From IMG/VR virus record IMGVR_UViG_2541047936_000006, positions 1-15,520 of that record: a DNA stretch of 15,520 nucleotides. One strand, written 5' to 3'. Both the position numbers and the translations under genes were made by a program. This document shows positions 1-15,520 of the stretch, piece by piece (positions within the stretch are counted from its first letter, which is position 1; every line of letters starts with the position of its first letter). Under the pieces are notes generated by a model. The model did no database searches. It saw nothing but the letters and a program-made list of their open reading frames with translations, and had not been told where the DNA came from. Source of the DNA: a virus. Its lineage: Duplodnaviria > Heunggongvirae > Uroviricota > Caudoviricetes.

Positions 1-219
1 TTACATCCACATAATTTGCTGCCCTGACGGCAACGGGTGCGGCCTTACGGCGTGGACTTCTCCCGGCTTCACGATGTATCTCTGTACCGACTCATAAGTG
101 ATGAACGTGGCGCTGCAATTCACGTTCTGGCACTGGTGATAACGCTCTTTTGTCGTGTCAGTGATATAGCGACTTGTACGCGCATGTGCGGCATGCTGGC
201 ATAAAGGACAATGAAACAT
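1..219 (-). CDS. ogr: Ogr-type zinc-finger activator of P2 late genes, 72 aa
   Basis: Translation from the ATG at 219 reads MFHCPLCQHAAHARTSRYITDTTKERYHQCQNVNC..., with the four-Cys spacing C-x2-C-x22-C-x4-C typical of Ogr/Delta. GAGG lies about 10 nt upstream. The track ORF (1..282) extends upstream in frame, but the internal ATG gives the canonical 72-aa length. Stop is at 1-3. Confidence 0.9.
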   Translation of the reverse strand: MFHCPLCQHAAHARTSRYITDTTKERYHQCQNVNCSATFITYESVQRYIVKPGEVHAVRPHPLPSGQQIMWM

Positions 220-300
220 CGCGAGCACCTCTTCCGGTTTTGTTGATGGTGCCATTTTAGTTAATTTACCCTTATAAAACAAACAGATAAAATAAAAATA

Positions 301-603
301 TTACTCATCATCTTCTGTTTCGTACTCCACATCAGAAAGCCTGACCTCAAGCTCTAAGGACGTCGTGAAGCCGCTATTATTCAGAAAATGTGTCACCTTA
401 GTGATTGTCCAGTCCTGCTCGTCTATGACGCGCTTAAAGCCTGATACTTTGGCTAAGGGATGACACAATTTATTCTTTGCCGCTGATGAGGGGAATTTTT
501 TATAGAGCGTGGACAGGCCAATATCAAAAATCAGCGCCACGCGTTGACGTGATTCACCCGCAGCCAGCAATCCCCGGCAGAACGAACGCCGTATCGAGTT
601 CAC
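301..603 (-). pseudogene. Chimeric remnant: Gin/Pin/Hin-type DNA-invertase C-terminal HTH fused in frame to the C-terminal end of a gpD-like tail/baseplate protein
   Basis: Residues RQRVALIFDIGLSTLYKKFPS closely match the C-terminal HTH of serine invertases (Gin ...QVALIYDVALSTLYKKHPA). The C-terminal ...WTITKVTHFLNNSGFTTSLELEVRLSDVEYETEDDE resembles the end of P2 late control protein D and sits directly upstream of ogr as D does in P2. Only a GTG start, no RBS; far shorter than the 387-aa gpD. Confidence 0.5.
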
Positions 604-823
604 CGCCCACGGCCAGAATCAGCACCTGTTCCCCCACGGAAGGTGCCCACCACGTGCGCGAACGTCCGGCACGATGGGTCAGCCACTGAAGCCAGTCGGT
701 GCACATGCCGCCGGTCTGCACACGGCAGCGACCGGCGTTAAGGTCGGTTTCGACGATAATGCCGGTGCGGATCATGTTGCGCAGTGCGCGCGCGAGTTCC
801 TGAATATTTGCGAGTGTGTTCAT
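554..823 (-). pseudogene. N-terminal fragment (about 85 aa) of baseplate spike protein gpV
   Basis: ATG at 823; MNTLANIQELARALRNMIRTGIIVETDLNAGRCRVQTGG... matches the N-terminus of P2 gpV as I recall it. The frame ends after ...VLPGI with AGCG-stop, and the following ORF (301..603) overlaps it in another frame, which fits a deletion junction near 570. Confidence 0.6.
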
Positions 824-889
824 AACGGGAAGGATGCCGCCGGGTCATACCGGCGGCAATGTGACGATGAGGTGTCGGGAATGGCACAA

Positions 890-1318
890 CTAACGGTCGA
901 GGTGAGCCAGGATAATCTCTTCAATCATCTGCACATCCTCACCGGTAAAGCCGAGCAGAGGACGCGCCGGATAATCAATTTTCTTACCGTCTTTCCGGTT
1001 TTCTTCCGACAGACCGAACTGATGCACACTGGCGATTTTCGGCGACTTCCCGCCGTAAAATTCCATTGATGCCTGCTCCGGGCTGGCGCGGATATGCAAA
1101 AAACGACTGGTAATAAGTTTCGCAAACATTTTTCGCTTAACACGACCAGTCTTTTTTCTGGCGCTCTGCTGCTGGCGTGGCGCGTAGGGTGTGCCGTCCG
1201 GGGCTTTCTGAGCCATCACCCGACGCTGCTGACTCTGCCGCAGACGTTTCGCCAGTTCGGCGCTCAGTCGCCGACGCCCTGACGGTGACAGCGATTCAAT
1301 CAGTCCGGTCACCCTCAC
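890..1318 (-). CDS. Phage virion morphogenesis / tail completion protein, gpS family (possibly start-compromised)
   Basis: The C-terminal half carries the family signature ...ASVHQFGL...YPARPLLGFTGEDVQMIEEIILAHL. Only GTG starts (1318 or 1312), no clear SD. It lies 39 nt after, and in frame with, the stop of M, where P2 would have L. Confidence 0.6.
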   Translation of the reverse strand: MRVTGLIESLSPSGRRRLSAELAKRLRQSQQRRVMAQKAPDGTPYAPRQQQSARKKTGRVKRKMFAKLITSRFLHIRASPEQASMEFYGGKSPKIASVHQFGLSEENRKDGKKIDYPARPLLGFTGEDVQMIEEIILAHLDR

Positions 1319-1357
1319 TGACCGGCGTGCCGCCCTGGCGCGGGGCGCATTCGGTTG

Positions 1358-2101
1358 TTAACTGGCTTTCTTTTTCGGGCGTCCACGTTTTGCCGGTGTC
1401 ACGCTCCGGGTCTTACGCGGGGTACGGGTGGCCGCTTTGGGCTGCGGCTCCGGCTTCGGTTTCAGCTCCCGCTCCAGTCGTTCAATCTCTTTTTTGACGC
1501 CTGCCTGACAGTCGAGCTGTGTCGCACGTTGCAGGTGAGCCAGCGCACCGGCGGCATCACCACCATCACGCAGAAACAGACCGGTGATTTTGTGCAGCTT
1601 TGCGCGCACTTCATCAGGCATGTCAGCCGTGGCGGTCAGTTCAAGGGTCTCCGTCAGCAGGCGGGTATCCACAGACTCACCGGCAGCGTGGGCGCGCATG
1701 GCCGCGAGCGCCACCTCCTCGGTGAACATGTACGGCGGGGTGCGGCGGTGTTTACCCGGCATGGTCAGACCGTACTTCAGGGCATAACGGGCAATCTCCA
1801 GCGCACCGGCAATATCGCCGGTATCCAGACGCCACAGCATGACCGTCATCAGAATGTCATCCTGTGCACCTTTGCCCTGCTCCAGCACGCCGTTCACCCA
1901 CGGCAACCAGAACGGCAGCAGTTCGCGTTTTTTCGCGGCCTTCAGCTCTTTTGAATAAATCGCTTTCAGTGTGCGCTGGTCTGCGGCCAGCTTGACCAGC
2001 ATCTGCTCATAGACAGTTGCATGTCGCAGCGGGGCGGCTTCCCGCTGCGCGGTCATCGCTGCCGAGACCCGCATCATGTGGCGCTGTGCGGGACTCGTCA
2101 T
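1358..2101 (-). CDS. M: Terminase small (endonuclease) subunit gpM, 247 aa
   Basis: ATG at 2101, 3 nt after the N stop. Full-length match in size and sequence to P2 gpM (MTSPAQRHMMRVSAAMTAQREAAPLRHATVYEQ...), with the basic Lys/Arg/Pro-rich C-terminal tail. Confidence 0.9.
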   Translation of the reverse strand: MTSPAQRHMMRVSAAMTAQREAAPLRHATVYEQMLVKLAADQRTLKAIYSKELKAAKKRELLPFWLPWVNGVLEQGKGAQDDILMTVMLWRLDTGDIAGALEIARYALKYGLTMPGKHRRTPPYMFTEEVALAAMRAHAAGESVDTRLLTETLELTATADMPDEVRAKLHKITGLFLRDGGDAAGALAHLQRATQLDCQAGVKKEIERLERELKPKPEPQPKAATRTPRKTRSVTPAKRGRPKKKAS

Positions 2102-2104
2102 CGG

Positions 2105-3178
2105 TTACGCTCCCGGCTCTGCGGTCGCTTTAGCCGGTGTGGAGAAATCACCGACCTTAATTTTTTCCACCAGACAACCGGCGGCGTAGTCCTCCACCAC
2201 GTAATCAATGTTCATTGACTCGTAGTTCTCCACGCGGTCGAGTTTCGGGTTTTCCTCAATCACGCGGCGATGGCTGTCATCCATGTAGTAGATGGACAGG
2301 TTTTCCAGCTTCGTGATGAGCATCGCATCCGCCGGGAAGTACGGGACGCGTACCGCTGGCAGGTTGCCGATGCGTTTCTGGCTGATGATGACGTCAGCGG
2401 CCAGCATTTCGCTGTTGTCCTGCTCCTTGTTGACGATGGGAAAATACTTGTCCGCCAGTAGCTGACGTCCCACAATCACCACAAGGTCAGGGTCTTCCTG
2501 ATACCACGGCTCAATCAGGTTGTTGGTCGCATCCATCACCAGTGCATCAAGGCTGGCATAATCACCGCCCTTACCCACGCGGATGACCTCAGAGGTGGTG
2601 TGCCCTTCCTCGTCAGTGACCTTGCTCATCACGCGCGCCGGGGCTTCATTGCGGTATTTCTGCAGCCAGCCGACCGCCACATCCTGCAGCATCGGATTGC
2701 TGCTGCGGTCAGAGGTTTCGGCACGCCTCACGCCGTTAAAACCGGCCATGATTAAATCAAGGGACTGGCGTTTGATAATGGCGTTACGGACACGGAGCTG
2801 GAAATCCTGATAACGCGCCCACAGGTCCAGCGTTTTGTAGCGGATATAAAAATCGAAGTTAATCTGGTCGCATTCGTACTTGTTTGACGCCAGCTTCGAG
2901 AAGTCCTTCGGCTGACGCTCGGTGCCACCGGCGGTGTCGGTGGTGCTGGCGATGGAGCCGGTGACACCAATACCAATTTTTTCCCCTTTCATTTCGCTGA
3001 CCGGCACAATGTTGATGCGGGTCAGAAAGTCAGAGGACTCCTGCATGGTGTTCATCAGGGTCTGGGTGACCGACGGTTCAACGGTGAATTTTTTCGACAC
3101 ATCACCGGCGTCGATGCCGTTCAGTTCGGCAACACGGGACAGGTAGGCATTAAATTTAAAGCGGGTTTCCTGGCGCAT
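2105..3178 (-). CDS. N: Major capsid protein gpN, 357 aa
   Basis: ATG at 3178; MRQETRFKFNAYLSRVAELNG...; the length and sequence correspond to P2 gpN. Follows O and precedes M as in P2. Confidence 0.95.
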   Translation of the reverse strand: MRQETRFKFNAYLSRVAELNGIDAGDVSKKFTVEPSVTQTLMNTMQESSDFLTRINIVPVSEMKGEKIGIGVTGSIASTTDTAGGTERQPKDFSKLASNKYECDQINFDFYIRYKTLDLWARYQDFQLRVRNAIIKRQSLDLIMAGFNGVRRAETSDRSSNPMLQDVAVGWLQKYRNEAPARVMSKVTDEEGHTTSEVIRVGKGGDYASLDALVMDATNNLIEPWYQEDPDLVVIVGRQLLADKYFPIVNKEQDNSEMLAADVIISQKRIGNLPAVRVPYFPADAMLITKLENLSIYYMDDSHRRVIEENPKLDRVENYESMNIDYVVEDYAAGCLVEKIKVGDFSTPAKATAEPGA

Positions 3179-3236
3179 AGTTTTTCCTGAAATTAAGGGT
3201 TAATCGTGAAGGTTTTCCCGGACTGACTGACGCCGG

Positions 3237-4091
3237 TCAGCAGTTCGTCATCAGGGCGTCACCGCCACCGCCGGTGGCTTTGCTGCGGCGCTGCTGGGTC
3301 AGACTTTCGGTGTGGTCGAGACTGTTTTTCAGGCGGGTGAATGCCTGACTGGTTTCATCCGCCCTGTCAGTCACATCCTGCTTAAGTGCCGAAAAGGCGG
3401 TTTCCATCTCAGCAAGGCGCTGCTCAGTGGCGCTCAGTTTTTCCTGCACATGCTCAGCGACAGCGGTCACCGCTTCATGCACGTCATTCAGACGGGCGTC
3501 ATCGCTGGCCTGTTTGCGGCCAAAAATGGATTTCACCTTTTCGGTCAGGGCGGTGAACACGGTTTCAGGCAGGTCTTCAAATTCCAGCTCAACAGGCGTT
3601 GCCACTGAAATCAGGTTTTCAGGGCTTAATTTGAAGCGGTTCAGAGGGTTGTGTTTTGCCGTGCGGCAGAATTCCAGGTATTCCGTGCCGAGGCTTGCCG
3701 GGTCATCGGTGACGGCCAGACCCACCAGATAACATTTGCCTGTATTGGCAAAGTTCGGCTGAATTTCCATTGAGGTATAGACCTTCTGCGCGGCCTTGTT
3801 CATCGCGATAAGGTCATCGGTCGGGGTGATTTTCGCAAACAGCGCCCATTTGCCTTTCAGCGCCGAATCATCGTCAATCTTTTCGGCCTTCAGTTCGGCC
3901 ACATCGCCATAACGTTTAAAAATACCGTCAGGCAGGATGCCGCGCAGATGTTCCAGGTTAATGCGGCAACCATAGACACGCGGGTCAAAGGTTTCGGCCA
4001 TTTCCTGAATATCCTGCGCACTGATGACACGCCCGTCACAGGTGTCACCCTCAACGCCGATACGAAAGAATTTTGAGACTTTTTTTGCCAT
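3237..4091 (-). CDS. O: Capsid scaffolding protein gpO, 284 aa
   Basis: The track ORF starts at 4157, but the internal ATG at 4091 (MAKKVSKFFRIGVEGDTCDGRV...) gives exactly 284 aa, the P2 gpO length. AGGA lies about 12 nt upstream. Confidence 0.85.
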   Translation of the reverse strand: MAKKVSKFFRIGVEGDTCDGRVISAQDIQEMAETFDPRVYGCRINLEHLRGILPDGIFKRYGDVAELKAEKIDDDSALKGKWALFAKITPTDDLIAMNKAAQKVYTSMEIQPNFANTGKCYLVGLAVTDDPASLGTEYLEFCRTAKHNPLNRFKLSPENLISVATPVELEFEDLPETVFTALTEKVKSIFGRKQASDDARLNDVHEAVTAVAEHVQEKLSATEQRLAEMETAFSALKQDVTDRADETSQAFTRLKNSLDHTESLTQQRRSKATGGGGDALMTNC

Positions 4092-4264
4092 TGTCAGGAG
4101 TCCTGAATAGTGATTAGAGGAGTCACATGTCGGCATCAGTTTCCCGACGATGCGCATCCTCCGCCATCAGTCCCGGATGGCTTATCACTGACACAACAGC
4201 ACCTTAGCGAATCGCGGGGCGCGACTCAGTAGCCTTGCCGTGTATTCATCACGGCGAGGTATTC
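4092..4264. promoter_or_regulatory. Divergent late-promoter region between O (leftward) and P (rightward), expected to be Ogr-dependent
   Basis: This is the 173-bp intergenic region between the two divergent head operons, which is where P2 has its P_O and P_P promoters. I could not locate an exact TGT-N12-ACA element by eye, so the call is positional. Confidence 0.45.
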
Positions 4265-6037
4265 ATGACCATCACCACAGACACCACTCTTTTACACGAC
4301 CCGCGTCGTCAGGCGGCGCTGCTGTACTGGCAGGGATTTTCCGTGCCGCAGATTGCCGCCATGTTGCAGATGAAACGCCCGACGGTGCAGAGCTGGAAAC
4401 AGCGCGACGGCTGGGACAGCGTTGCCCCCATCAGCCGTGTCGAAATGAGTCTGGAAGCGCGGCTGACCCAGCTCATCATCAAACCGCAGAAAACCGGCGG
4501 TGACTTCAAGGAAATTGACCTGCTCGGACGCCAGATTGAACGACTGGCGCGGGTCAACCGCTACAGTCAGACCGGCAACGAGGCAGACCTTAATCCGAAC
4601 GTCGCTAACCGCAACAAAGGCGGGCGTCGCAAACCGAAAAAGAATTTTTTCAGTGACGAGGCCATCGAAAAGCTGGAGCAGATTTTCTTTGAGCAGTCTT
4701 TCGAATATCAGTTGCACTGGTATCGCGCCGGACTTGAGCACCGCATCCGCGATATCCTGAAATCCCGCCAGATTGGCGCGACGTTTTATTTTTCCCGCGA
4801 GGCGCTGCTGCGCGCCCTGAAAACCGGCCATAACCAGATTTTTCTGTCGGCCAGTAAAACGCAGGCGTATGTGTTCCGCGAATACATCATTGCCTTTGCC
4901 CGGCTGGTTGACGTTGACCTGACCGGTGACCCGATTGTCCTGGGCAATAACGGTGCAAAACTGATTTTTCTCGGCACCAACTCCAACACCGCACAGAGCC
5001 ATAACGGCGACCTGTACGTCGATGAGATTTTCTGGATCCCGAATTTTCAGGTACTGCGTAAGGTGGCATCAGGTATGGCCTCACAGAGTCACCTGCGCTC
5101 GACCTATTTCTCCACCCCGTCCACGCTGGCGCACGACGCCTACCCGTTCTGGTCCGGTGAACTGTTTAACCGGGGACGCGCCAGCGCCGCTGAACGCGTG
5201 GAAATCGACGTCAATCATAACGCACTTGCCGGAGGTCTTCTCTGTGCGGACGGCCAGTGGCGGCAGATTGTCACCATTGAGGACGCGCTGAAAGGCGGCT
5301 GCACGCTGTTCGACATTGAGCAGCTCAAACGCGAAAACAGCGCCGACGATTTTAAAAACCTGTTCATGTGTGAATTTGTTGACGACAAGGCGTCAGTGTT
5401 CCCGTTCGAGGAGCTGCAACGCTGCATGGTCGACACGCTGGAAGAATGGGAAGACTACACGCCGTTTGCCACCAATCCGTTCGGCTCCCGCCCGGTATGG
5501 ATTGGTTACGACCCGTCACACCGTGGCGACAGCGCCGGATGCGTGGTGCTGGCACCGCCGGTGGTGGCCGGTGGCAAATTCAGAATACTTGAGCGCCATC
5601 AGTGGAAAGGCATGGACTTTGCCACCCAGGCGGAATCCATCCGCAAACTCACCGAAAAATACAACGTCGAATACATCGGTATTGATGCCACCGGCCTCGG
5701 TGTCGGCGTGTTCCAGCTCGTGCGCTCGTTCTATCCCGCCGCGCGCGATATCCGCTACACGCCGGAAATGAAAACCGCAATGGTGCTCAAGGCAAAAGAC
5801 GTTATTCGCCGTGGCTGTCTGGAATATGACGTCAGCGCCACCGACATCACCAGCTCGTTTATGGCTATCCGCAAGACCATGACCAGCAGCGGACGCAGCG
5901 CCACCTATGAGGCCAGCCGCAGCGAGGAAGCCAGCCACGCCGACCTCGCCTGGGCGACCATGCACGCTCTGTTAAATGAGCCACTCACCGCCGGTATCAG
6001 CACCCCGCTGACATCCACCATTCTGGAGTTTTACTGA
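4265..6037 (+). CDS. P: Terminase large (ATPase) subunit gpP, 590 aa
   Basis: ATG at 4265, preceded by GAGG at 4257-4260. MTITTDTTLLHDPRRQAALLYWQGFSVPQIAAMLQ... ends ...TILEFY. The length matches P2 gpP, and the stop TGA overlaps the Q start (TGATG). Confidence 0.9.
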   Translation: MTITTDTTLLHDPRRQAALLYWQGFSVPQIAAMLQMKRPTVQSWKQRDGWDSVAPISRVEMSLEARLTQLIIKPQKTGGDFKEIDLLGRQIERLARVNRYSQTGNEADLNPNVANRNKGGRRKPKKNFFSDEAIEKLEQIFFEQSFEYQLHWYRAGLEHRIRDILKSRQIGATFYFSREALLRALKTGHNQIFLSASKTQAYVFREYIIAFARLVDVDLTGDPIVLGNNGAKLIFLGTNSNTAQSHNGDLYVDEIFWIPNFQVLRKVASGMASQSHLRSTYFSTPSTLAHDAYPFWSGELFNRGRASAAERVEIDVNHNALAGGLLCADGQWRQIVTIEDALKGGCTLFDIEQLKRENSADDFKNLFMCEFVDDKASVFPFEELQRCMVDTLEEWEDYTPFATNPFGSRPVWIGYDPSHRGDSAGCVVLAPPVVAGGKFRILERHQWKGMDFATQAESIRKLTEKYNVEYIGIDATGLGVGVFQLVRSFYPAARDIRYTPEMKTAMVLKAKDVIRRGCLEYDVSATDITSSFMAIRKTMTSSGRSATYEASRSEEASHADLAWATMHALLNEPLTAGISTPLTSTILEFY

Positions 6038-7240: not shown

Positions 7241-7259
7241 GTGCTTTCCCCGCCTCGCC
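7241..7259 (-). other. P2/P4/186-type cos cohesive-end sequence (19 nt)
   Basis: The plus strand reads GTGCTTTCCCCGCCTCGCC, the reverse complement of GGCGAGGCGGGGAAAGCAC, which I recall as the P2/P4 cohesive end. It lies about 170 bp beyond the Q stop, matching P2 left-end topology. Confidence 0.75.
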
Positions 7260-8664: not shown

Positions 8665-10925
8665 GTAACAAAGAAAGACCAATAAAAATAATTGAGGCGA
8701 CACCTCAAGATTTTACTGAAAAAACATATAATTTCGGAAAGAAACAACCTATCCGAACAGTAACAACTAGTCTAAAAAATAGACTCAAACAAGAAGTCGA
8801 TGACGTTAAAAATTTTTTCCAGAGCTCATTTAAAAAATGGCCCAATATACCGGCGGTGGCTAGAGTTACTCTTCATGAAAAAGCTCTTGCTAAGTCACAT
8901 CGCCCATCAAGCCTATTAGGTGATAATACATGTCCCGTAATAGGCAGTGATAATTTTGGAGAATTACTTATAAGTGTTACTGAAAAAGGGTTAGCACAAC
9001 TTCGCAAAAAAATTGAAAATAGCACTAATTCTCATAATGGGACAGTACATATTGCTGTAATTGAAAAGATCGAACCTTTTAGTCTTAACCATGATGTTAT
9101 AGATAAAAATAAATCAGATAGTTTTCTTCTGAAACTCTTTGACCATAAAGATAGAACAACTAACCGCAGTATCGACAAAGAATTAATGGAATTTGCAGAT
9201 GAACTAGGAATACAAAAACCCAAAAAGTATGATATCAGTTCAGATTTGAGTATATATGAAGTAAAAGGGAATGATAACATCGCCCAACTGGCAAGTTTTA
9301 TTGGCATACGAAAATTAGAACCTATGCCAACATTTGGTCTTACTCATACAGTATCGCAATATATTCCTGCTGAAACTCTAGACCTAGATGATTTTCCCTT
9401 ACCTCAAGAGGATAAACATTATCCACTACTCGGAATTATAGATAGCGGAGTCGATCCCAATAACAACATACTTAGGCCATGGATTTGGGATAGTTTAGAT
9501 TTAGTAAAAGGAGAACACGACTATTCTCATGGGAACATGGTTGCAAGTTTAGCAATTAATGGAAGATGGTTGAATAACTATGCTGGTTTTCCTCAATGCC
9601 AAGCTGAAATTGTTGATGTTGCAGCCTTTCCCAAAGATGGTACGCTCAAATTGCCACAATTAATGAAAGCTATCCGAGAGGCTGTGACCACCTATCCAGA
9701 AGTACGTGTATGGAATCTGTCATTAGGTTGTCAATCCCCATGTTCTGAAGACAGCTTCTCTGAATTGGGGCATTTTTTAAATGCACTTCATGATGAGCAT
9801 GATTGTCTTTTCGTCGTAGCATCCGGCAACTACATTTATGATCCTCAACGAACCTGGCCTCCTCAAGAATTAGGTGGGCATGACAGAATATCAGCCCCCG
9901 CAGATTCTGTTCGTTCATTAACTGTTGGCTCAGTTGCCCATTTAGAATCGTCTGACTCTGTGGTCAAAAGATTTGAACCTTCATCTTTTTCTAGAAGAGG
10001 TCCCGGCCCAGCCTTTATACCCAAACCAGAGATAAATCACTTTGGAGGTAATTGTGACAGTAAATTAAACTGTGAACATACCGGAATCATAGCTATTGGC
10101 GAGGACAATGCTCTTTGCGAAAGTATTGGCACAAGTTTATCAGCACCGTTAATCTCAAGTTTAGCGGCATCACTGTGGCATGAACTAGATGTTAATGGTT
10201 CTATTTCACCATCGCCTGAACGTATCAAGGCACTATTAATTCATTCTGCGTTAAAAAACTCACCAGCCAAAACGGAGCATTATGCGTTTAATTATCAAGG
10301 ATTTGGACGCCCAAGCGATCATATAAATGATATTATTGGTTGCAATAAAAATGAGATTACATTTCTATTTGAAATAGATACCCGAGAAGGTATTGAATTC
10401 AGTAGAACGCCATTTGTAATACCACAGTCATTACGTACTGAGGATGGAAAATTCACAGGTGAAATTATTATGACACTCGTTTATTCTCCACCGCTTGATT
10501 ATGACTACCCATCTGAATATTGCCGTTCTAATGTGGATGTGTCATTCGGGACTTACACTTATGATCCAGTTAACGCTAAATGGATACATAGCGGAAAAAT
10601 TCCACAAATAAAAGAAAAGAGTGAATTATTTGAAAAGGTACTGATAGAAAATGGCTTCAAATGGTCTCCAGTCAAAGTTTATAGAAAACAATTTCCGCAA
10701 GGTATAAATGGGGAGCAATGGAGACTTAAACTTGATGTTCAGAGACGAGCAGAGCAAGAGCCTCTATCTTCACCTCAACGTGCTGTATTGGCTATTACGT
10801 TAAGATCTCTTGCCAATTCTACTACAGTCTACAACGAAGCCGAGGTTGAAATAAATAATCTTGGTTGGAAAGAAACTGATATTGTTGTTCGTGAACAACC
10901 AAAAATCAGGATTCGTCAAAAATAA
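8661..10925 (+). CDS. Subtilisin-like serine peptidase (S8 family), 754 aa, with large extra N- and C-terminal regions (candidate IetS-like)
   Basis: The catalytic triad appears in the canonical order D-H-S: Asp261 in GIIDSGVD (nt 9441-9443), His290 in HGNMVAS (9528-9530), Ser492 in GTSLSAP (10134-10136), with an ASGN oxyanion-hole motif. About 250 aa N-terminal and about 220 aa C-terminal have no recognisable motifs. AT-rich codon usage. Confidence 0.9.
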   Translation: MSNKERPIKIIEATPQDFTEKTYNFGKKQPIRTVTTSLKNRLKQEVDDVKNFFQSSFKKWPNIPAVARVTLHEKALAKSHRPSSLLGDNTCPVIGSDNFGELLISVTEKGLAQLRKKIENSTNSHNGTVHIAVIEKIEPFSLNHDVIDKNKSDSFLLKLFDHKDRTTNRSIDKELMEFADELGIQKPKKYDISSDLSIYEVKGNDNIAQLASFIGIRKLEPMPTFGLTHTVSQYIPAETLDLDDFPLPQEDKHYPLLGIIDSGVDPNNNILRPWIWDSLDLVKGEHDYSHGNMVASLAINGRWLNNYAGFPQCQAEIVDVAAFPKDGTLKLPQLMKAIREAVTTYPEVRVWNLSLGCQSPCSEDSFSELGHFLNALHDEHDCLFVVASGNYIYDPQRTWPPQELGGHDRISAPADSVRSLTVGSVAHLESSDSVVKRFEPSSFSRRGPGPAFIPKPEINHFGGNCDSKLNCEHTGIIAIGEDNALCESIGTSLSAPLISSLAASLWHELDVNGSISPSPERIKALLIHSALKNSPAKTEHYAFNYQGFGRPSDHINDIIGCNKNEITFLFEIDTREGIEFSRTPFVIPQSLRTEDGKFTGEIIMTLVYSPPLDYDYPSEYCRSNVDVSFGTYTYDPVNAKWIHSGKIPQIKEKSELFEKVLIENGFKWSPVKVYRKQFPQGINGEQWRLKLDVQRRAEQEPLSSPQRAVLAITLRSLANSTTVYNEAEVEINNLGWKETDIVVREQPKIRIRQK

Positions 10926-10930
10926 GCATT

Positions 10931-10955
10931 ATGGTCACCTTTTATAGGTGACCAT
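10931..10955. terminator. Hairpin between the convergent cargo operons (possible bidirectional terminator)
   Basis: ATGGTCACC (10931-10939), loop TTTTATA, GGTGACCAT (10947-10955); a perfect 9-bp stem between the stop at 10925 and the stop at 10959. There is no strong U-tract on either side. Confidence 0.45.
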
Positions 10956-10958
10956 TTA

Positions 10959-11720
10959 CTACACCTTATTATTTTCAACTATTTTATGAATATCCATATC
11001 AAACCAAGAAACTTGCGAAATTTCTTTTAGTGGAAAGATGATACTAGTATCAGCATCCTCAAGCTCTCTATATTCATTCACCAAGATTACTTTCAATGAA
11101 TCCTTATCTCTATACCCAGAGATAATAGGATAGATTGAAACATACTGGTTAGGTCCTTCTTTCTCGTTAGGCTCACCTAATGCGTTAACAATTCCTACAT
11201 ATGTCTTTTTATTTTGCAACGTAATAAGTATTGAACGTCTATCAACTAACGAATCAAAAAATATTTCATCCATTGGATTATCATTAATAAGCTCTTGCCT
11301 CATCCTTAGCATGACAAGATTCTCATAATCAATATTGGCAGCCTTTACCCCTTGGATATAATTTATAATTTTAGCTCTATATATAACCAAATATCTAGCA
11401 CCGACACTCCATATCCAAGCCAAAAATATCGTTCCACATGAAAGTAAAATCATCCATCCTATGATTCTTTCAGTACCATTGTCACTAAGTTTGAGATCTA
11501 ATTGTTCCCGAACCATCGTGACAGGATGGAAGCTCGGACATATCCATTTTATTAAGTAAGCTATAATCAATGTCCATATAAAACACCACAGACCAAAGGC
11601 GGCTGACTTCATATATAACAACTGCCCATCATAACGGTGTAATCTATAGAAATGATAAGGATGAGTGGTTAATACAATATAACCACTCACAAGTAATGGA
11701 ATAATTAATAAAGCAAACAT
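10959..11720 (-). CDS. Uncharacterised membrane protein, 253 aa: three predicted N-terminal TM helices plus a soluble C-terminal domain of about 145 aa
   Basis: ATG at 11720. Hydrophobic stretches are FALLIIPLLVSGYIVLTT, AAFGLWCFIWTLIIAYLIKWI and IIGWMILLSCGTIFLAWIWSV. Its start lies 2 nt after the stop of the upstream small ORF (TAATAATG). No family recognised. Confidence 0.7.
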   Translation of the reverse strand: MFALLIIPLLVSGYIVLTTHPYHFYRLHRYDGQLLYMKSAAFGLWCFIWTLIIAYLIKWICPSFHPVTMVREQLDLKLSDNGTERIIGWMILLSCGTIFLAWIWSVGARYLVIYRAKIINYIQGVKAANIDYENLVMLRMRQELINDNPMDEIFFDSLVDRRSILITLQNKKTYVGIVNALGEPNEKEGPNQYVSIYPIISGYRDKDSLKVILVNEYRELEDADTSIIFPLKEISQVSWFDMDIHKIVENNKV

Positions 11721-11722
11721 TA

Positions 11723-11959
11723 TTAATTCCCTTTAGCCATTTTTTCTTCTTGCTTTACCTGCTCAGAAACTATTTTTCTTGCTTTAATTTTCATCAATTT
11801 TACTGTATCTGAGCTTGCCAAGTCTTCTTTAGATGTGATAATCGCGCCTCGACCTACCACCTCAACAGTGTTTGTTCCAGATGCTTCAAGCCTCCTCGCC
11901 AGTTCTCTTTCCTTTTCAATAGCAGCTTTACCTATAATACGTTCAAATATATTCATCAT
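11723..11959 (-). CDS. Small charged hypothetical protein, 78 aa, first gene of a two-gene operon
   Basis: ATGATG start at 11959/11956 with a strong SD (GGAGG about 6 nt upstream on the minus strand). The stop is tightly coupled to the membrane-protein start. Sequence MMNIFERIIGKAAIEKERELARRLEASGTNTVEVVGRG...; no family recognised. Confidence 0.6.
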   Translation of the reverse strand: MMNIFERIIGKAAIEKERELARRLEASGTNTVEVVGRGAIITSKEDLASSDTVKLMKIKARKIVSEQVKQEEKMAKGN

Positions 11960-12050
11960 TTAACCTCCACTTGATTGATGCCAAGATAGTAATCACCTCC
12001 TCACAATATCTTACCAACCTAACAATTAACAGAACACTGTGTATAAGTCC

Positions 12051-12078
12051 AGTATAGTTTAATTAATAAATTAGGCAA
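12051..12078 (-). promoter_or_regulatory. Candidate sigma70 promoter for the minus-strand two-gene operon
   Basis: On the minus strand: TTGCCT (-35), a 16-nt spacer, TATACT (-10), about 90 nt upstream of the ATG at 11959 in an AT-rich intergenic region. Found by eye only. Confidence 0.3.
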
Positions 12079-12473
12079 ATCTATCAAAATGGTATTTTGT
12101 TAAAAATTCAGCTAACTCTGAGGTTGGTAAAACAGTCCACCAGATGTATCGCTAAAGCACTTAGAAACCACTATAACCATCCTAAGTGTACCAGTCAGTC
12201 TGTTTGTCTAATCGCATCACTATGCTCGTTATTCTATCCCCCGCCAATCCTGAGCTGGCTGCGTTCTCTATCGTCTGCGTGGTGGCGGTGCAGCGCTGGG
12301 CTGACCGATATAGTTAAGCCATACGTAATTATCCCGGACTATTTCGGCACACCCGACCAGCTCATCGGGCGTCAGATTTTCGTTGACCATAATCTGCTGT
12401 AGACGGTGAACAATGGCCATCAGCTTGATATTTTTAGTTTTATGCTGCGGTATCTCGCCTGGTATTCTGTGCA

Positions 12474-12929
12474 TTATCCAAGCCACCCGTTTTGCTGTGC
12501 ACGCTCCACCTGTTCATCTGAATAGTTCCATATCCCATCCGCACCAACCACTGCCCCGCCAGACATCCCCGTCTCTGGTTCATACACAACAGCAAGGCCG
12601 AGCTGATGCATAATTTCATGATTAATTCTGAATACCAGACCACGCTCACTAAGTTCTTTCCAGTTCACAAACTCATATGCGCCTGTATTAAGCAGCTCAA
12701 TACTTAGCAAGACATAATCTTCCAGCCAGTCTGACAAGTCAGTAACATCTGTTATCCGGGCTTCAACCTTTCGCCCCGTATACACACCCTGCACCCATTC
12801 ATGCAAAATCAACGTGTCCCCGCGCTCATAATTACGGTCATTTTTCCGAAACTCTGCGCGTTTCTTTCCTTCCAGCACAAGGTCAAAATATTTTGCGTGC
12901 AGCTTTACCTCGTGAATTTTTGCCATCAT
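12474..12929 (-). CDS. DUF3850-like (ASCH/PUA-like fold) domain protein, about 151 aa
   Basis: MAKIHEVKLHAKYFDLVLEGKKRAEFRKNDRNYERGDTLILHEW...YTGRKVEARITDV matches the DUF3850 consensus as I recall it. ATG at 12929 with GGAG about 9 nt upstream; it overlaps the stop of the A fragment (ATGATG/TGA). The track ORF starts at a GTG at 12962. Confidence 0.65.
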   Translation of the reverse strand: MMAKIHEVKLHAKYFDLVLEGKKRAEFRKNDRNYERGDTLILHEWVQGVYTGRKVEARITDVTDLSDWLEDYVLLSIELLNTGAYEFVNWKELSERGLVFRINHEIMHQLGLAVVYEPETGMSGGAVVGADGIWNYSDEQVERAQQNGWLG

Positions 12930-14038
12930 TTCCACTCCATTACTGTTGAGAATCCCGGCCACTCATCAGCGACCGGATACGTGAATTTTTTCCCGTCATA
13001 ATTTACGGTCGCGCCACGCGCCAGCGCCTCAAGCTCCCATCGCTGCGGCCTGATACCGTTCTGAGCAAGGTCAACGCGGATACGGGTAATTTGCATTCTT
13101 TCCGACCGGGTCAGTCTGGCCGATGGTGCAATTTCATGTGGTTTTAACGGGCTTCCGTTTCTTTGCTGACGGTTTGGCGTTCTCAGGTCGTGTTTTAATG
13201 CACCCCTGAGCGCCCTCACGACCTCCGGGTCATTCCATTCGATAACACCATCATCAACCAGATTAAGCACTGCTGCGGCGTGTTCAGAAGGCGTGGGAGC
13301 CGGTGACGAAGTATCACCACTGGTGAGCTTTCCACAGTTATTGACAGGACTCCGAGGCGCGGCGATGCCGCTTTTTAAAGTCAAAGGCTCAACGACCGGC
13401 ACTTTCGGAACAATGCGCCAGTCCGTGGTTCTGGTGATATGAATATGACGCGCGCCGAGATGCGGCGCGTAAATGCCGACCACTCTCTCGACTTCTTCCT
13501 CGTACTCGTTAACTTCATCCGACGGACTACGGGCGACCCTGACAGTCTGACAATCGCGCGAGACATTTGCCCCACCCTGCGCGCTGATATACAGCGCAAA
13601 ATCACCACTGTCTGCGGCGGCGCGTGCAGCCTCGACGCGCTCGTCAAACTCATCAGCAATGCTGACGCCGCGAGGCAATTTGCGTAGTTCACGGTAAGCC
13701 CCCATTGTCGGCAGACCAACCGTTTTAAATTGCGGGATGCGCCACGTTGACGCCCATGCGGTAACAGCCGCCGCAGTATCTTTCAGCGGTCTGCCGGTAT
13801 CGTTATCGAGCTGACCATCCAGTGCATAGCCGTCGATATTTTTTGAAATGTATTTCGCGATATATCCCGCAGCACCGCCCCGGTTACCGATGTAAAGAGC
13901 AAAACCTTCTTTCGACAGCAAATCAGATGGGCGCTCTGAAATCTGAATGCTTTTACGTTTGGCTTCATTTTCGAAACTTGCCTCATCGCTAGTTGGACAA
14001 GAAATTTCTACATTTGTCGTCACTTTGCTATCCTCCAT
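12926..14038 (-). CDS. Replication initiation endonuclease gpA family, C-terminal portion only (about 370 aa against 761 aa in P2)
   Basis: Contains the rolling-circle initiator active-site Tyr motif GYIAKYISKNIDG about 60 residues from the start, where P2 gpA has its catalytic Tyr near residue 450. No cox or B gene lies upstream. Possible starts are the ATG at 14038 or the GTG at 14023 (GGAGGA 8 nt upstream). Confidence 0.65.
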   Translation of the reverse strand: MEDSKVTTNVEISCPTSDEASFENEAKRKSIQISERPSDLLSKEGFALYIGNRGGAAGYIAKYISKNIDGYALDGQLDNDTGRPLKDTAAAVTAWASTWRIPQFKTVGLPTMGAYRELRKLPRGVSIADEFDERVEAARAAADSGDFALYISAQGGANVSRDCQTVRVARSPSDEVNEYEEEVERVVGIYAPHLGARHIHITRTTDWRIVPKVPVVEPLTLKSGIAAPRSPVNNCGKLTSGDTSSPAPTPSEHAAAVLNLVDDGVIEWNDPEVVRALRGALKHDLRTPNRQQRNGSPLKPHEIAPSARLTRSERMQITRIRVDLAQNGIRPQRWELEALARGATVNYDGKKFTYPVADEWPGFSTVMEWK

Positions 14039-14060
14039 AAGATTTGCGATTCACCAACTG

Positions 14061-14085
14061 GAGCCATCTAGAGCCTTTTTGAGCG
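14061..14085. promoter_or_regulatory. Three 10-bp-phased direct repeats (GAGCC/GAGCC/GAGCG) in the switch region; candidate C-repressor operator
   Basis: GAGCCatcta GAGCCttttt GAGCGaatca at 14061, 14071 and 14081, between the divergent A fragment and C. P2-family repressors are known to bind direct rather than inverted repeats. A TATAAT hexamer lies at 14109-14114. Confidence 0.4.
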
Positions 14086-14131
14086 AATCACAAATTGCCA
14101 AGTAACAATATAATTGGAGATTAGCAAAATT

Positions 14132-14431
14132 ATGTCAAGTGAACAAAGTGAGAAACTAAAGCTCATCCGTGAATCCGAACGCCTTAAAACTAAGGAACTT
14201 GCTGAATTAATTGGAATTAATTACTACACATATCATGGATATGAATCAGGAAAATCAAAAATGCCTATGGAAGCAGGTATGAAGCTGTTTAAGCATCCAC
14301 GCTTTCGCAAGTATCGTGACTGGTTCATGTTTGATGAAACAGATCCAGCAGCTGGACAAATAGCCCCGGCTCTCGCACACATTGGGCAAGACTCAACAAC
14401 CTTGCACCACTCAGACCAGAAGACTGGCTGA
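14132..14431 (+). CDS. C: Immunity repressor C (P2 C family), 99 aa
   Basis: ATG at 14132 with GGAG 12 nt upstream; the track starts at a TTG at 14114. The C-terminus ...AGQIAPALAHIGQDSTTLHHSDQKTG parallels P2 C (...SGQIAPALAHFGQNETTSPHSGQKTG), with an HTH-like segment near the N-terminus. Confidence 0.8.
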   Translation: MSSEQSEKLKLIRESERLKTKELAELIGINYYTYHGYESGKSKMPMEAGMKLFKHPRFRKYRDWFMFDETDPAAGQIAPALAHIGQDSTTLHHSDQKTG

Positions 14432-14524
14432 CGATTTATTCAGCATATGTGTGTAGTAAATGTACGAAAGAAAATTGCATTAATTTTCAAGTAGTAGAAG
14501 TAAACAGCGTCATCGGAGGGCTTT

Positions 14525-15520
14525 ATGTCTATTAAAAAGCTCGATGATGGTCGTTATGAAGTGGACGTCAGACCGCAGGGTGCAGATGGAAAACGTATCA
14601 GGCGGAAATTTAAAACTAAAGGTGAAGCTCAAGCATTCGAACGTCATGTACTGGTTAACTACCACAACAAAGAGTGGTTGGAGAAACCAGCCGACCGCCG
14701 AACTCTTACAGAGTTGTTAGGCAGATGGTGGATATATCACGGAAAATCACATGAGCGTGGAGATATTGAACGGGGGCGTTTAACGACAATAATCGCCAAA
14801 TTTGCAGAAATGGGAGTGTCCAGAGCTGACCAGCTAACAAAGAAAACGATAACTGATTATCGCGTTGTAATGATGAACGATGGTCTGAAACCAGCCAGCG
14901 TAAATCGACATCTGGCAATAATGAGCGGGATGTTCACCAAGTTAATTGACGCCGGTGAATACCACTCTCACAACCCGTTCCGTGAGATTAAACGGTTACG
15001 TGAAGCTGTTACGGAAATGGCTTTTTTGTCCAGTGAAGAGATTACGCGGCTGTTATCCATGCTTGATGGTGATGAATTAAATGCAACTCTGGTCTGCCTT
15101 TCTACTGGTGGACGCTGGAGTGAAGTATCTAATTTAAAAGCTGAACACATCATTAACCAGATGGTTACGTTTATGAAAACTAAAAACGGAAAACGCAGGA
15201 CAATTCCCGTTTCGCAGGACCTGATTAAACGGATCAAGACCAAAAATTCAGGCAGGCTTTTTAATGCCAGTTACTACAAAGTGCGTAACGCTCTCAGGGA
15301 AGTAAAACCCGATTTACCTGACGGACAAGCAGTACATGTTTTGAGGCATACATTTGCCACACATTTTATAATGAATGGAGGTAACATAATCACATTGCAG
15401 CGCATCCTGGGTCATTCTAACATTCAGCAAACTATGACCTACGCACACTTTGCACCGGATTTCTTACAAGATGCTGTGACTCTTAACCCGGTGTCAGGAA
15501 TGTCCATAATGCGTCCATAA
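14525..15520 (+). CDS. int: Tyrosine integrase (P2 Int family), 331 aa
   Basis: GGAGGG SD precedes the ATG at 14525. The catalytic box HVLRHTFATH and the Tyr in ...QQTMTYAHF (nt 15440-15442) are present. It is downstream of C as in P2, and its stop coincides with the window end. Confidence 0.9.
   Translation: MSIKKLDDGRYEVDVRPQGADGKRIRRKFKTKGEAQAFERHVLVNYHNKEWLEKPADRRTLTELLGRWWIYHGKSHERGDIERGRLTTIIAKFAEMGVSRADQLTKKTITDYRVVMMNDGLKPASVNRHLAIMSGMFTKLIDAGEYHSHNPFREIKRLREAVTEMAFLSSEEITRLLSMLDGDELNATLVCLSTGGRWSEVSNLKAEHIINQMVTFMKTKNGKRRTIPVSQDLIKRIKTKNSGRLFNASYYKVRNALREVKPDLPDGQAVHVLRHTFATHFIMNGGNIITLQRILGHSNIQQTMTYAHFAPDFLQDAVTLNPVSGMSIMRP

What the first reader, a model, noticed from the sequence alone, without database searches (positions are those of the whole stretch)
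1..15520. Defective P2-like prophage retaining head, cos, ogr, C and int but lacking lysis, tail, cox, B and the N-terminal half of A
Gene order matches P2 in reverse (ogr-D'-V'-S-M-N-O | P-Q-cos-cargo-A'-C-int). L, X, lysis genes, R, W through U, cox and B are absent, and A, V and D are fragments. The element cannot make virions or replicate, yet its regulators and the defence cargo look intact, which suggests it is kept as a defence island rather than as a phage.
Basis: partly seen in the sequence, partly recalled or inferred. Interest (0 to 1): 0.55.

Follow-up and report, generated by a model that had tools for sequence, protein, structure and literature searches.

The report
Recently decayed P2-like prophage remnant
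This is an ordinary, recently broken-down P2-type prophage in one E. coli strain: four small-homology deletions removed its tail, lysis and replication genes, and nothing shows that it is being "kept" for the intact anti-phage genes it still carries.

Summary
The window is a P2-like (Peduovirus) prophage between pflB and pflA of E. coli GCA_000461215.1. Compared with an intact relative (E. coli DCE7, about 33.5 kb), it has lost about 18 kb in four deletions. The junctions show only 1-6 bp of microhomology.

- cox is not absent. Its first 51 codons are fused in frame to A residues 442-761.
- S lacks its first 11 codons.
- A 122-bp relic of a Cin/Hin-type invertase gene lies between D' and V'.

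Also retained are the P2 cos site, the ori nick region inside A', the Ogr-binding late promoter and, just outside the window, both att cores.

The cargo is an IetA/IetS system plus an uncharacterised two-gene module (78 aa and 253 aa).

The "kept as a defence island" reading is not supported:
- The head and terminase genes are as intact as the cargo.
- The junctions occur in one strain only (0 of 5,426 complete E. coli genomes).
- Random placement of the deletions spares IetAS 15% of the time.
- The commonest P2 remnant in E. coli (ogr-D') lacks the defence hotspot.
- IetAS has also been described as a toxin-antitoxin system, which could protect it from deletion.

Verdict: ordinary prophage decay, low interest.

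The parts
1..219 (-). ogr, late-gene activator (72 aa, intact)
   Evidence: PF04606 Ogr_Delta, E=1e-21. 72/72 aa identical to P2 Ogr and to L001 OgrK.
253..282 (-). ogr promoter (-10 and -35) carried in the D' 3' end and intergenic region
   Evidence: Mapped from the P2 annotation; the sequence is nearly identical to P2.
301..451 (-). D' fragment: last 50 codons of tail gene D
   Evidence: blastn block 1-451 = L001 6001-6451 = P2 24254-23804.
449..570 (-). 122-bp relic of a Cin/Hin-type DNA invertase gene, flanked by deletion junctions J1 (449-451) and J2 (570-573)
   Evidence: 100% identical to L001 12676-12797, inside a 'recombinase family protein' gene. HTH_7 hit in ORF 301-603. Junction alignments.
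573..823 (-). V' fragment: first 84 codons of baseplate gene V (chimeric ORF 554-823)
   Evidence: PF04717 Phage_base_V; blastn blocks. The exact ORF product is on record only in GCA_000461215.1 and Logan SRR958739.
890..1318 (-). S' : tail-completion gene S lacking its first 11 codons; deletion junction J3 at 1309-1314
   Evidence: PF05069, profile positions 13-147; comparison with P2 S; junction alignment.
1358..2101 (-). M, small terminase subunit (247 aa, intact)
   Evidence: PF05944; 245/247 aa identical to L001 and to P2.
2105..3178 (-). N, major capsid protein (357 aa, intact)
   Evidence: PF05125, E=6e-151; 355/357 aa identical to L001.
3237..4091 (-). O, capsid scaffold/protease (284 aa, intact)
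   Evidence: PF05929; 284/284 aa identical to L001.
4171..4201 (.). Ogr-binding activator site shared by the divergent late promoters pO and pP
   Evidence: 31/31 nt identical to P2 3057-3087.
4265..6037 (+). P, large terminase subunit (590 aa, intact)
   Evidence: Terminase_5, Terminase_6N and Terminase_6C; 588/590 aa identical to L001.
6037..7071 (+). Q, portal protein (344 aa, intact), followed by terminator tQ at 7077-7092
   Evidence: PF04860; 344/344 aa identical to L001; terminator scan and the P2 tQ annotation.
7241..7259 (.). cos: 19-nt cohesive-end sequence
   Evidence: Identical to the P2 cosL/cosR sequence GGCGAGGCGGGGAAAGCAC.
7519..8664 (+). ietA, AAA+ ATPase (381 aa). Walker A is GPPGCGKT at residue 135; Walker B is VLFLDE at residue 189.
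   Evidence: PADLOC IetA, E=9e-132. NCBIfam IteA 387 bits, below its 510-bit cut-off. Motifs.
8661..10925 (+). ietS, S8 subtilase (754 aa). The Asp motif (IIDSG, at residue 261) and the Ser motif (GTSLSAP, at residue 490) are present. It overlaps ietA by 4 bp.
   Evidence: PADLOC IetS, E=1e-273. PF00082. NCBIfam IteS 782 bits, below its 900-bit cut-off. Motifs.
10959..11720 (-). hyp253: membrane protein with three apparent N-terminal hydrophobic (putative transmembrane) segments and a C-terminal Sm/Hfq/WYL-like beta-barrel. Function unknown.
11723..11959 (-). hyp78: small charged protein, partner of hyp253, immediately upstream of it (2-bp gap)
   Evidence: PHROG 37504, 'unknown function'. A homologous small ORF precedes hyp253 homologues in unrelated prophages.
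12268..12474 (-). hyp68: small conserved ORF downstream of the orf91 homologue
   Evidence: PHROG 11386. Present in all related cassettes.
12474..12926 (-). DUF3850/ASCH protein (150 aa), homologue of P2 orf91
   Evidence: PF12961, PF24187 and PF04266; P2 annotation.
12926..14038 (-). cox'::'A in-frame fusion ORF. It joins cox codons 1-51 (window 13884-14038) to A residues 442-761 (window 12926-13886). It keeps the Y450/Y454 'YIAKY' motif but lacks the HWH motif (residues 404-406). Deletion junction J4 lies at 13884-13886.
   Evidence: Pfam Phage_GPA matches only profile positions 302-321. The 365-aa GTG-start version is annotated in GCA_000461215.1.
13333..13373 (.). P2 replication origin (A nick site, about window 13353) inside A'
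   Evidence: 41/41 nt identical to P2 29872-29912 around the annotated nick at 29892.
14087..14138 (.). Candidate face-to-face Pe/Pc promoters of the immunity switch
   Evidence: Consensus scan: minus strand TTGACA-17-AATTAT and plus strand ATCACA-16-TATAAT. Window 13884-14200 is 100% identical to many full-length prophages.
14132..14431 (+). C, immunity repressor (99 aa, intact; only about 50% identical to P2 C, so a different immunity type)
   Evidence: PHROG 147, E=5e-40; 99/99 aa identical to L001 and 50/99 to P2.
14525..15520 (+). int, tyrosine integrase (331 aa, intact) specific for the pflA site
   Evidence: PF24624 and PF00589. The exact protein is present in 13,402 blocks, and pflA follows int at all 10 places shown.

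Best explanation
The window is a young, strain-specific remnant of a P2-like temperate phage integrated into the first codons of pflA in E. coli GCA_000461215.1.

Four illegitimate deletions of about 6.2, 5.5, 3.0 and 3.3 kb, with 1-6 bp of junction microhomology, removed the tail genes, head completion, lysis and replication functions and the 3' part of cox. The element can no longer excise, replicate, lyse the cell or build virions.

What remains is expected to behave as a silent, locked-in prophage (inferred, not shown):
- C, expressed from Pc, represses Pe and so silences the cox'::A' fusion. It should also give immunity to homo-immune P2-like phages.
- Int without Cox cannot excise the element.
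- The Ogr-dependent head and terminase operons stay off unless trans-activated.
- The hotspot cargo next to cos (IetAS, plus the hyp78/hyp253 pair) is expressed independently and can still act against phage.

The survival of the cargo is best explained by chance and by the element's youth. The toxin-antitoxin character of IetAS, and the lethality of losing C while lytic genes were still present, may also have helped. There is no demonstrated domestication.
For: - Collinear blocks and breakpoints are the same against three references.
- Junction microhomologies are 1-6 bp, and the window contains no IS element or long repeat.
- Both chromosomal flanks were verified, and a 13-bp att core lies on each side of the window.
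- The source scaffold and an independent Logan contig are 100% identical to the window over their 10.8-kb overlap.
- All 14 full-length retained genes have no internal stops and are 99-100% identical to those of an intact prophage.
- The junctions are absent from 5,426 complete genomes.
- The junction-specific proteins occur in only 2 blocks, against 13,402 blocks for the intact Int and 902 for hyp253.
- Other, independent defective variants have different deletions or IS insertions: L003, L012, L020, L022, L024 and L002.
- The essentiality of the lost genes is stated in the P2 record.
- IetAS was identified by PADLOC, NCBIfam and Pfam, with its motifs intact.
- The A-Q/cos hotspot is a known defence locus (bioRxiv 10.1101/2021.01.21.427644).
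Against: - Under a uniform random-deletion model, the long uninterrupted block M-N-O-P-Q-cos-cargo is unusual. P is about 0.006 for sparing both the head module and IetAS, and about 0.001 for sparing all retained features. These feature sets were chosen after seeing the data.
- Four separate deletions in an element whose remaining DNA is 96-99.6% identical to functional relatives is a striking amount of decay in a short time.
- No expression or phenotype data exist. The silent-prophage behaviour, C-mediated immunity and IetAS activity are inferred from homology.
Confidence: 0.82

Rival explanations
1. Domesticated defence island. Selection keeps the remnant because IetAS, with or without hyp78/hyp253 and the C repressor, protects the host, while the dangerous phage functions were purged.
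For: - IetA, IetS, hyp253, hyp78 and C are 100% identical to the intact versions.
- The deleted genes are the ones that can kill the host: lysis, A nicking and tail genes.
- Two other independently deleted P2 remnants also keep the same cassette (L020 and L024). These were found by searching for a cargo protein, so the sample is biased.
- The joint sparing of the retained features is improbable under a naive random model.
Against: - The head and terminase genes, useless without tails, are just as intact.
- The element is private to one strain, so there is no record of persistence.
- IetAS alone is spared by chance in 15% of trials.
- All 12 complete genomes with this IetAS allele carry it in a P2-like prophage context. 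About 10 of these show no obvious disruption and 2 are IS-disrupted.
- Genome-wide, the hotspot flanks are not over-represented relative to other core genes. Genomes with at least 80% coverage number 1,533 for Q-cos and 1,407 for the A 3' end, against 1,602 for FI, 1,511 for N and 1,990 for ogr-D'.
Confidence: 0.1
2. Addiction-driven retention. IetAS behaves as a toxin-antitoxin pair (protease toxin, ATPase antitoxin), so deletions that hit it kill the cell. The cassette then survives prophage decay whatever its benefit to the host.
For: - IetAS was first described as a plasmid-stabilising toxin-antitoxin system, and its anti-phage mechanism is unknown (PMC13069673).
- Both genes and their catalytic motifs are intact.
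- The cassette persists in several differently damaged prophages.
Against: - A deletion removing both genes at once need not be lethal unless the toxin outlives the antitoxin. This has not been tested for this allele.
- A single case cannot separate this from chance (P=0.15).
Confidence: 0.15
3. Helper-dependent mobilisable element (a proto-satellite). It keeps attL/attR, int, cos, the ori nick site and a near-complete capsid/terminase module (lacking only the head-completion gene L). A co-infecting P2-like phage could supply tails, L, lysis, Cox, A and B. At about 15.7 kb, a dimer (about 31.5 kb) would fill a P2-size head.
For: - cos, ori and the pO/pP Ogr site are identical to P2.
- An identical 13-bp att core lies on each side of the window.
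- Q, P, O, N, M, Ogr and Int are intact.
Against: - The retained C repressor should block a homo-immune helper, and a hetero-immune helper would carry a different Cox/Int specificity.
- P2 A acts preferentially in cis (established knowledge of P2).
- There is no primase/replicase, helper-sensing gene or capsid-size gene of its own; every ORF is accounted for.
- Other remnants do not converge on this architecture: L020, L024 and L003 lost head genes instead.
- The element is found in one strain only.
Confidence: 0.04
4. Assembly artefact. The strain really carries an intact prophage, and the deletions are mis-joins.
For: The source is a 2013-era draft scaffold, and many E. coli strains carry several P2-like prophages (up to 7 places per genome).
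Against: - All four junctions join non-homologous sequence with at most 6 bp of overlap, which k-mer assemblers do not create.
- The NCBI scaffold and an independent Logan assembly agree base for base over 10.8 kb, a stretch that includes three of the four junctions.
- The product spanning the fourth junction is also carried by a second contig in the collection.
- Both flanks run directly into chromosomal genes.
Confidence: 0.02

Closest known systems
Bacteriophage P2 (NC_001895) and the intact P2-like prophage at pflA in E. coli DCE7 (NZ_CP090611)
   Same: - Identical gene order.
- 96-98% nucleotide identity to P2 in ogr-D', V', S' and M-to-cos (about 96% in the A 3' end), and 99.6% to the DCE7 prophage over 12.6 kb.
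- Identical cos, ori nick region and pO/pP activator site.
   Different: - About 18 kb is missing in four deletions.
- The immunity/integration module (C, cox, int) is only 50-70% similar to P2, and the element targets pflA instead of the P2 attachment site.
- The hotspot carries IetAS plus hyp78/hyp253 instead of old/tin.
- The ancestor had an invertase where P2 has fun(Z).
Cryptic P2 remnants of E. coli (the ogrK-D' type annotated in many genomes, as in K-12)
   Same: These are also immobile P2 leftovers that keep a functional-looking ogr and a 3' fragment of D. The ogr-D' segment is the most widely retained P2 piece, found in 1,990 of 5,426 genomes.
   Different: The K-12-type remnant is far smaller and has lost cos, the head genes, the hotspot, C and int (my own knowledge for K-12). 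The present element is an earlier stage of decay and is private to one strain.
Defence hotspot between gpA and gpQ/cos of P2-like prophages (Rousset et al., bioRxiv 10.1101/2021.01.21.427644)
   Same: The cargo sits exactly in this locus, between the A/orf91 genes and cos-Q. It has low GC (34-42%, against 52-61% in the head-gene region) and includes a recognised defence system.
   Different: That work describes the hotspot mainly in prophages in general. It does not address remnants, and IetAS is not mentioned in the preprint text.
IetAS (AAA+ ATPase plus S8 protease; a toxin-antitoxin and anti-phage system)
   Same: Two overlapping genes in the order ietA-ietS, with strong PADLOC matches and intact Walker A/B motifs and subtilase Asp and Ser motifs.
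   Different: Scores fall below NCBIfam's equivalog cut-offs (387 against 510 bits; 782 against 900 bits). This is therefore a divergent allele whose activity is untested. The mechanism of the family is unknown (PMC13069673).
Phage satellites (P4-like elements; capsid-forming PICIs)
   Same: It carries a helper-compatible cos, an integrase and att sites. Like capsid-forming PICIs, it has its own capsid and terminase genes but no tail genes.
   Different: It has no replication or helper-sensing genes, no excisionase and no size-determination gene. It is derived by recent deletion, is not a conserved lineage, and is found in one strain only.

Membership tests
P2-like phage (Peduovirus) - by descent | P2 gene order Q-P | O-N-M ... 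V ... D-ogr and A ... cox | C-int, with high nucleotide identity | tested here: met
   Five collinear blocks at 96-99.6% identity to L001, L002 and P2.
P2-like phage (Peduovirus) - by descent | P2-family capsid, scaffold, terminase and portal proteins, and an Ogr/Delta zinc-finger activator | tested here: met
   PF05125, PF05929, PF05944, Terminase_5/6N/6C, PF04860 and PF04606.
P2-like phage (Peduovirus) - by descent | P2 19-nt cos and an origin located inside gene A | tested here: met
   19/19 nt and 41/41 nt identical to P2.
Functional (viable) P2-like prophage | Complete tail, head-completion and lysis modules | tested here: not met
   FI, FII, E, T, U, W, J, I, H, G, R, X, L, Y, K and lysABC are absent. 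D, V and S are truncated.
Functional (viable) P2-like prophage | Intact A (HUH-type nickase), B and Cox | tested here: not met
   A lacks residues 1-441, including the HWH motif at 404-406. B is absent. cox is reduced to 51 codons.
IetAS defence/toxin-antitoxin system | Adjacent AAA+ ATPase (IetA) and S8 subtilase (IetS) genes in one operon | tested here: met
   PADLOC IetA 9e-132 and IetS 1e-273; the genes overlap by 4 bp.
IetAS defence/toxin-antitoxin system | Catalytic motifs present (Walker A/B; subtilase Asp/His/Ser) | tested here: met
   GPPGCGKT, VLFLDE, IIDSG and GTSLSAP are present. The His residue is inferred from the full-length Peptidase_S8 match.
IetAS defence/toxin-antitoxin system | Reaches NCBIfam equivalog score | tested here: not met
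   387 bits against a 510-bit cut-off, and 782 against 900. It is a homologue, not an equivalog.
IetAS defence/toxin-antitoxin system | Measured protection against phage, or toxicity of IetS relieved by IetA | not testable with these tools
   Needs plaque assays and toxicity assays.
Domesticated defective prophage / defence island | Orthologous remnant inherited vertically in several lineages | tested here: not met
   0 of 5,426 complete genomes share any junction. The junction-specific ORFs occur in 2 blocks only.
Domesticated defective prophage / defence island | Stronger conservation of the useful cargo than of obsolete phage genes | tested here: not met
   Head and terminase genes have no internal stops and are 99-100% identical to the intact relative, the same as the cargo.
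Phage satellite (P4-like / capsid-forming PICI) | Own replication initiator and helper-responsive regulation | tested here: not met
   Only a truncated A is present. No primase, alpha, epsilon or delta homologues appear among the ORFs.
Phage satellite (P4-like / capsid-forming PICI) | Helper-compatible packaging site | tested here: met
   The cos site is identical to P2.
Phage satellite (P4-like / capsid-forming PICI) | Helper-dependent excision and transfer | not testable with these tools
   Needs infection experiments.

The most novel reading that the evidence does not exclude
The remnant is not dead. It keeps both att cores, int, cos, the ori nick site, Ogr and a near-complete capsid/terminase module (lacking only the head-completion gene L). 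At about 15.7 kb it is half a P2 genome, so a dimer would fill a P2-size head. It could therefore be a nascent tail-stealing hitcher that a suitable P2-like helper mobilises. That would spread IetAS and the uncharacterised hyp78/hyp253 module, and it would be a snapshot of how a satellite can arise from its own helper family by deletion.
Probability: 0.04. Interest if true: 0.6.

Novelty: new member of a known kind. Interest (0 to 1): 0.15.

Why it matters
As it stands, this matters little. Defective P2-like prophages are common in E. coli, and the A-Q/cos hotspot is already known to hold defence systems.

The case is a clean, datable example of early prophage decay: four microhomology deletions and no point decay. 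It also shows how easily intact cargo can be mistaken for evidence of domestication.

Two by-products may be more useful than the remnant itself. The first is the hyp78/hyp253 gene pair, which travels as a moron in unrelated prophages and is a candidate new phage-exclusion module. The second is the integration of this phage family into the first codons of pflA, which gives PflA a phage-encoded N-terminus.

Tried and rejected
- **tRNA scan:** none found, so the integration site is not a tRNA gene.
- **Rfam scan:** no match.
- **Repeat search:** no IS element or long repeat that could have mediated the deletions, so IS-mediated or homologous deletion was rejected.
- **Exact look-up of the 370-aa ATG-start fusion:** nothing on record. 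The 365-aa GTG-start version worked.
- **Int look-up:** did not return the source strain, but it showed that pflA follows int at all 10 places shown.
- **Cargo against 50,697 sequenced phages:** the only hit was a 46-bp match covering 1% of the query, so the cassette is known only from prophages in these collections.
- **Full-text search for the RefSeq accessions of the cargo proteins:** no paper found.
- **The Bobay et al. 2014 paper** is not in the searchable library. It is cited from memory and from the reference list seen.
- **Assembly artefact:** rejected on junction structure and on the agreement of two assemblies.
- **Satellite membership:** rejected because there are no replication or helper-sensing genes.
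- **Mitomycin-C induction as a test:** rejected, because P2-type repressors are not SOS-sensitive (established knowledge of P2).
- **Retention census:** this is crude. It uses megablast detection and genome-level counts, and multi-lysogens mask defective copies. It is indicative only.

Full report
**What is in the window**

A whole-window megablast finds P2-like phages and prophages at 96-99% identity. No sequenced phage, and no complete E. coli genome, matches the window contiguously.

blastn against an intact prophage between pflB and pflA of E. coli DCE7 (L001) resolves the window into five collinear blocks. The breakpoints are the same against a second prophage (L002) and against phage P2.

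| Window | L001 | Content |
|---|---|---|
| 1-451 | 6001-6451 | ogr, plus the last 50 codons of D |
| 449-570 | 12676-12797 | 122 bp from the 3' part of a Cin/Hin-type invertase gene |
| 573-1314 | 18282-19024 | V codons 1-84, and S without its first 11 codons |
| 1309-13886 | 22018-34595 (99.6%) | M, N, O, P, Q, cos, cargo, orf91 homologue, A residues 442-761 |
| 13884-15520 | 37891-39527 | cox codons 1-51, C, int |

Four segments of 6,224, 5,484, 2,993 and 3,295 bp (17,996 bp in all) are missing.
- The first two remove D(N-terminal part)-U-T-E-FII-FI and H-G-I-J-W-V(C-terminal part).
- The third removes R, lysC, lysB, lysA, K, Y, X and L.
- The fourth removes A(N-terminal part), four small ORFs, B, orf78 and the 3' part of cox.

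Pfam confirms every retained gene.
- cox is not absent. Its first 51 codons are fused in frame to A' (ORF 12926-14038, minus strand).
- S is 5'-truncated.
- An invertase relic sits between D' and V'.

**Are the deletions real?**

The four junctions join unrelated sequence with only 1-6 bp of microhomology. The window holds no IS element or long repeat.

The chimeric V' ORF that spans junction 2 is on record in exactly two places: scaffold KE702336.1 of E. coli GCA_000461215.1, and a Logan assembly of SRR958739. Both are 100% identical to window 1-10823.

The cox'::A' fusion, in its 365-aa GTG-start form, is annotated in the same scaffold and carried by a second contig.

The flanks run straight into chromosomal genes: pflB-focA-ycaO on the ogr side, and pflA and other host genes on the int side. 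The missing genes are not nearby, and an assembly artefact is very unlikely.

A 13-bp direct repeat, GTCAGTTATTGGT, lies 113-125 bp left of the window and 91-103 bp right of it. It corresponds to codons 2-5 of native pflA. Both att cores therefore survive, and the prophage supplies a new 5' end to pflA.

**State of what is left**

All 14 full-length genes have no internal stops and are 99-100% identical at the protein level to those of the intact DCE7 prophage. These are ogr, M, N, O, P, Q, ietA, ietS, hyp253, hyp78, hyp68, the DUF3850 gene, C and int.

Several cis-acting sites match P2:
- the 19-nt cos sequence (7241-7259);
- 41 nt around the ori nick (about 13353, inside A');
- the Ogr-binding site between pO and pP (4171-4201);
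- the ogr promoter, which is nearly identical.

Candidate face-to-face Pe/Pc promoters lie between cox' and C. That stretch is 100% identical to many full-length prophages.

The A' part keeps the two catalytic tyrosines (YIAKY, P2 residues 450-454) but has lost the HWH motif at 404-406 and everything upstream. Pfam's Phage_GPA model matches only its last 20 positions.

The P2 record annotates A, B, L, X, Y, K, R, S and the tail genes as essential, and Cox as required for excision. The inference that the element cannot excise, replicate, lyse the cell or build virions is therefore sound. It remains an inference.

**The cargo**

The low-GC stretch 7.5-12.3 kb (34-42% GC, against 52-61% in the head-gene region) lies exactly in the A-to-Q/cos hotspot, which is already known to hold defence systems in P2-like prophages (bioRxiv 10.1101/2021.01.21.427644).

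It encodes IetA and IetS:
- PADLOC gives E=9e-132 for IetA and 1e-273 for IetS.
- The Walker A/B motifs and the subtilase Asp and Ser motifs are present.
- The two genes overlap by 4 bp.

Scores are below NCBIfam's equivalog cut-offs. IetAS was first described as a plasmid-stabilising toxin-antitoxin pair, and its anti-phage mechanism is unknown (PMC13069673). In E. coli it can be prophage-borne (bioRxiv 10.1101/2022.08.21.504612).

Convergent with IetAS is a pair of uncharacterised genes, hyp78 and hyp253. They have no Pfam, PADLOC or NCBIfam family.

**Is it "kept as a defence island"?**

Several tests speak against this part of the interpretation.

1. There is no differential decay. The head and terminase genes are as intact as the cargo.
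2. There is no evidence of persistence.
   - None of 5,426 complete E. coli genomes has any of the junctions.
   - The junction-specific proteins occur in 2 blocks of the large assembly collection, against 13,402 blocks for the same Int and 902 for hyp253.
3. Placing four deletions of the observed sizes at random in a 33.5-kb prophage spares IetAS in 15% of trials. The joint sparing of the head module and IetAS is rarer (about 0.6%), but that feature set was chosen after the fact.
4. A crude census of P2 core segments in complete genomes shows no excess of the hotspot flanks. The over-represented piece is ogr-D', the K-12-type remnant, which lacks the hotspot.

   | Segment | Genomes with at least 80% coverage |
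   |---|---|
   | ogr-D' | 1,990 |
   | FI sheath | 1,602 |
   | Q 3' end-cos | 1,533 |
   | N capsid | 1,511 |
   | A 3' end | 1,407 |

5. This IetAS allele is present in only 12 complete genomes. All 12 carry it in a P2-like prophage context; about 10 show no obvious disruption and 2 are IS-disrupted.
6. Other damaged relatives lost different parts, so there is no convergent architecture:
   - L003 has D'-V' and M'-P' deletions.
   - L012 has lost everything from the A 3' part to H.
   - L020 has a cox'-orf91' fusion and a P'-to-S deletion.
   - L024 has lost P to T.
7. The toxin-antitoxin nature of IetAS offers a selfish explanation for its survival. The same holds for the lethality of losing C while lytic genes were still present.

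**Most likely picture**

This is a young, strain-private, locked-in prophage remnant produced by illegitimate recombination. The following behaviour is inferred from homology:
- C keeps Pe silent, and with it the cox'::A' fusion. It should also confer immunity to homo-immune P2-like phages.
- Int cannot excise without Cox.
- The Ogr-dependent head operons stay silent unless trans-activated.
- IetAS, and possibly hyp78/hyp253, may still protect the cell.

A mobilisable "proto-satellite" reading cannot be excluded, since att, int, cos, ori and the capsid genes are retained and two copies would fill a P2-size head. It is unlikely for four reasons:
- The resident C would block a homo-immune helper.
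- A hetero-immune helper would carry a different Cox.
- P2 A acts in cis (established knowledge of P2).
- The element is seen in one strain only.

**Comparison and novelty**

By descent this is a P2-like (Peduovirus) prophage. It fails every test for a functional one. It resembles the well-known cryptic P2 remnants of E. coli but is at an earlier stage of decay. It is not a satellite, and it does not meet the criteria for a domesticated prophage (vertical persistence, differential conservation).

It is a new instance of a known kind, and its interest is low.

The by-products are listed separately under things noticed in passing:
- the hyp78/hyp253 module;
- integration into the pflA start codon region;
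- the in-frame cox'::A' fusion that keeps the nickase tyrosines and the ori.

Noticed in passing
[not shown]
   Followed up: partly
flanks of the window in L005 and L027: window coordinates -125..-113 and 15611..15623: The att core GTCAGTTATTGGT corresponds to codons 2-5 of pflA. The prophage integrates into the start of pflA and supplies a new 5' end (MSNLTNCNTTENTATAGATK fused to SVIGRIHSFE...). Lysogens therefore make a PflA with a phage-encoded N-terminal extension, presumably driven by phage-derived upstream sequence. The exact Int protein is in 13,402 blocks of the collection, and pflA follows it at all 10 places shown.
   Followed up: partly
window 12926-14038 (minus strand): Deletion 4 created an in-frame fusion of cox codons 1-51 to A residues 442-761, directly downstream of the early promoter. 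The fusion keeps the nickase tyrosines Y450/Y454 (YIAKY) and contains the ori nick site in its own coding sequence. It lacks the HWH metal-binding motif. It is probably inert, but it could bind ori or interfere with the A protein of an incoming P2-like phage.
   Followed up: partly
window 449-570: A 122-bp island of a Cin/Hin-type invertase gene (the HTH_7 part) survives between two deletions. The ancestor therefore carried an invertible tail-fibre segment at the position where P2 has fun(Z), as the DCE7 prophage does. With the D' and V' pieces it forms a chimeric 100-codon ORF (301-603).
   Followed up: yes
L020, L024, L012, L003, L002, L022: Independently damaged P2-like prophages are easy to find.
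- L020: cox'-orf91' fusion plus a P'-to-S deletion.
- L024: P-to-T deletion.
- L012: deletion from the A 3' part to H.
- L003: D'-V' and M'-P' deletions.
- L002: IS21 inserted in A.
- L022: IS30 near B.
Each has different breakpoints, which suggests frequent and unpatterned decay of this phage family.
   Followed up: partly
L027 7003-5994 region (right flank beyond pflA): The source strain and many others carry a three-gene insert between pflA and ycaD: a flavodoxin-like protein, a LysR regulator and an amino-acid permease. It is absent from DCE7 and E302, so this is a variable chromosomal islet next to the phage attachment site.
   Followed up: no
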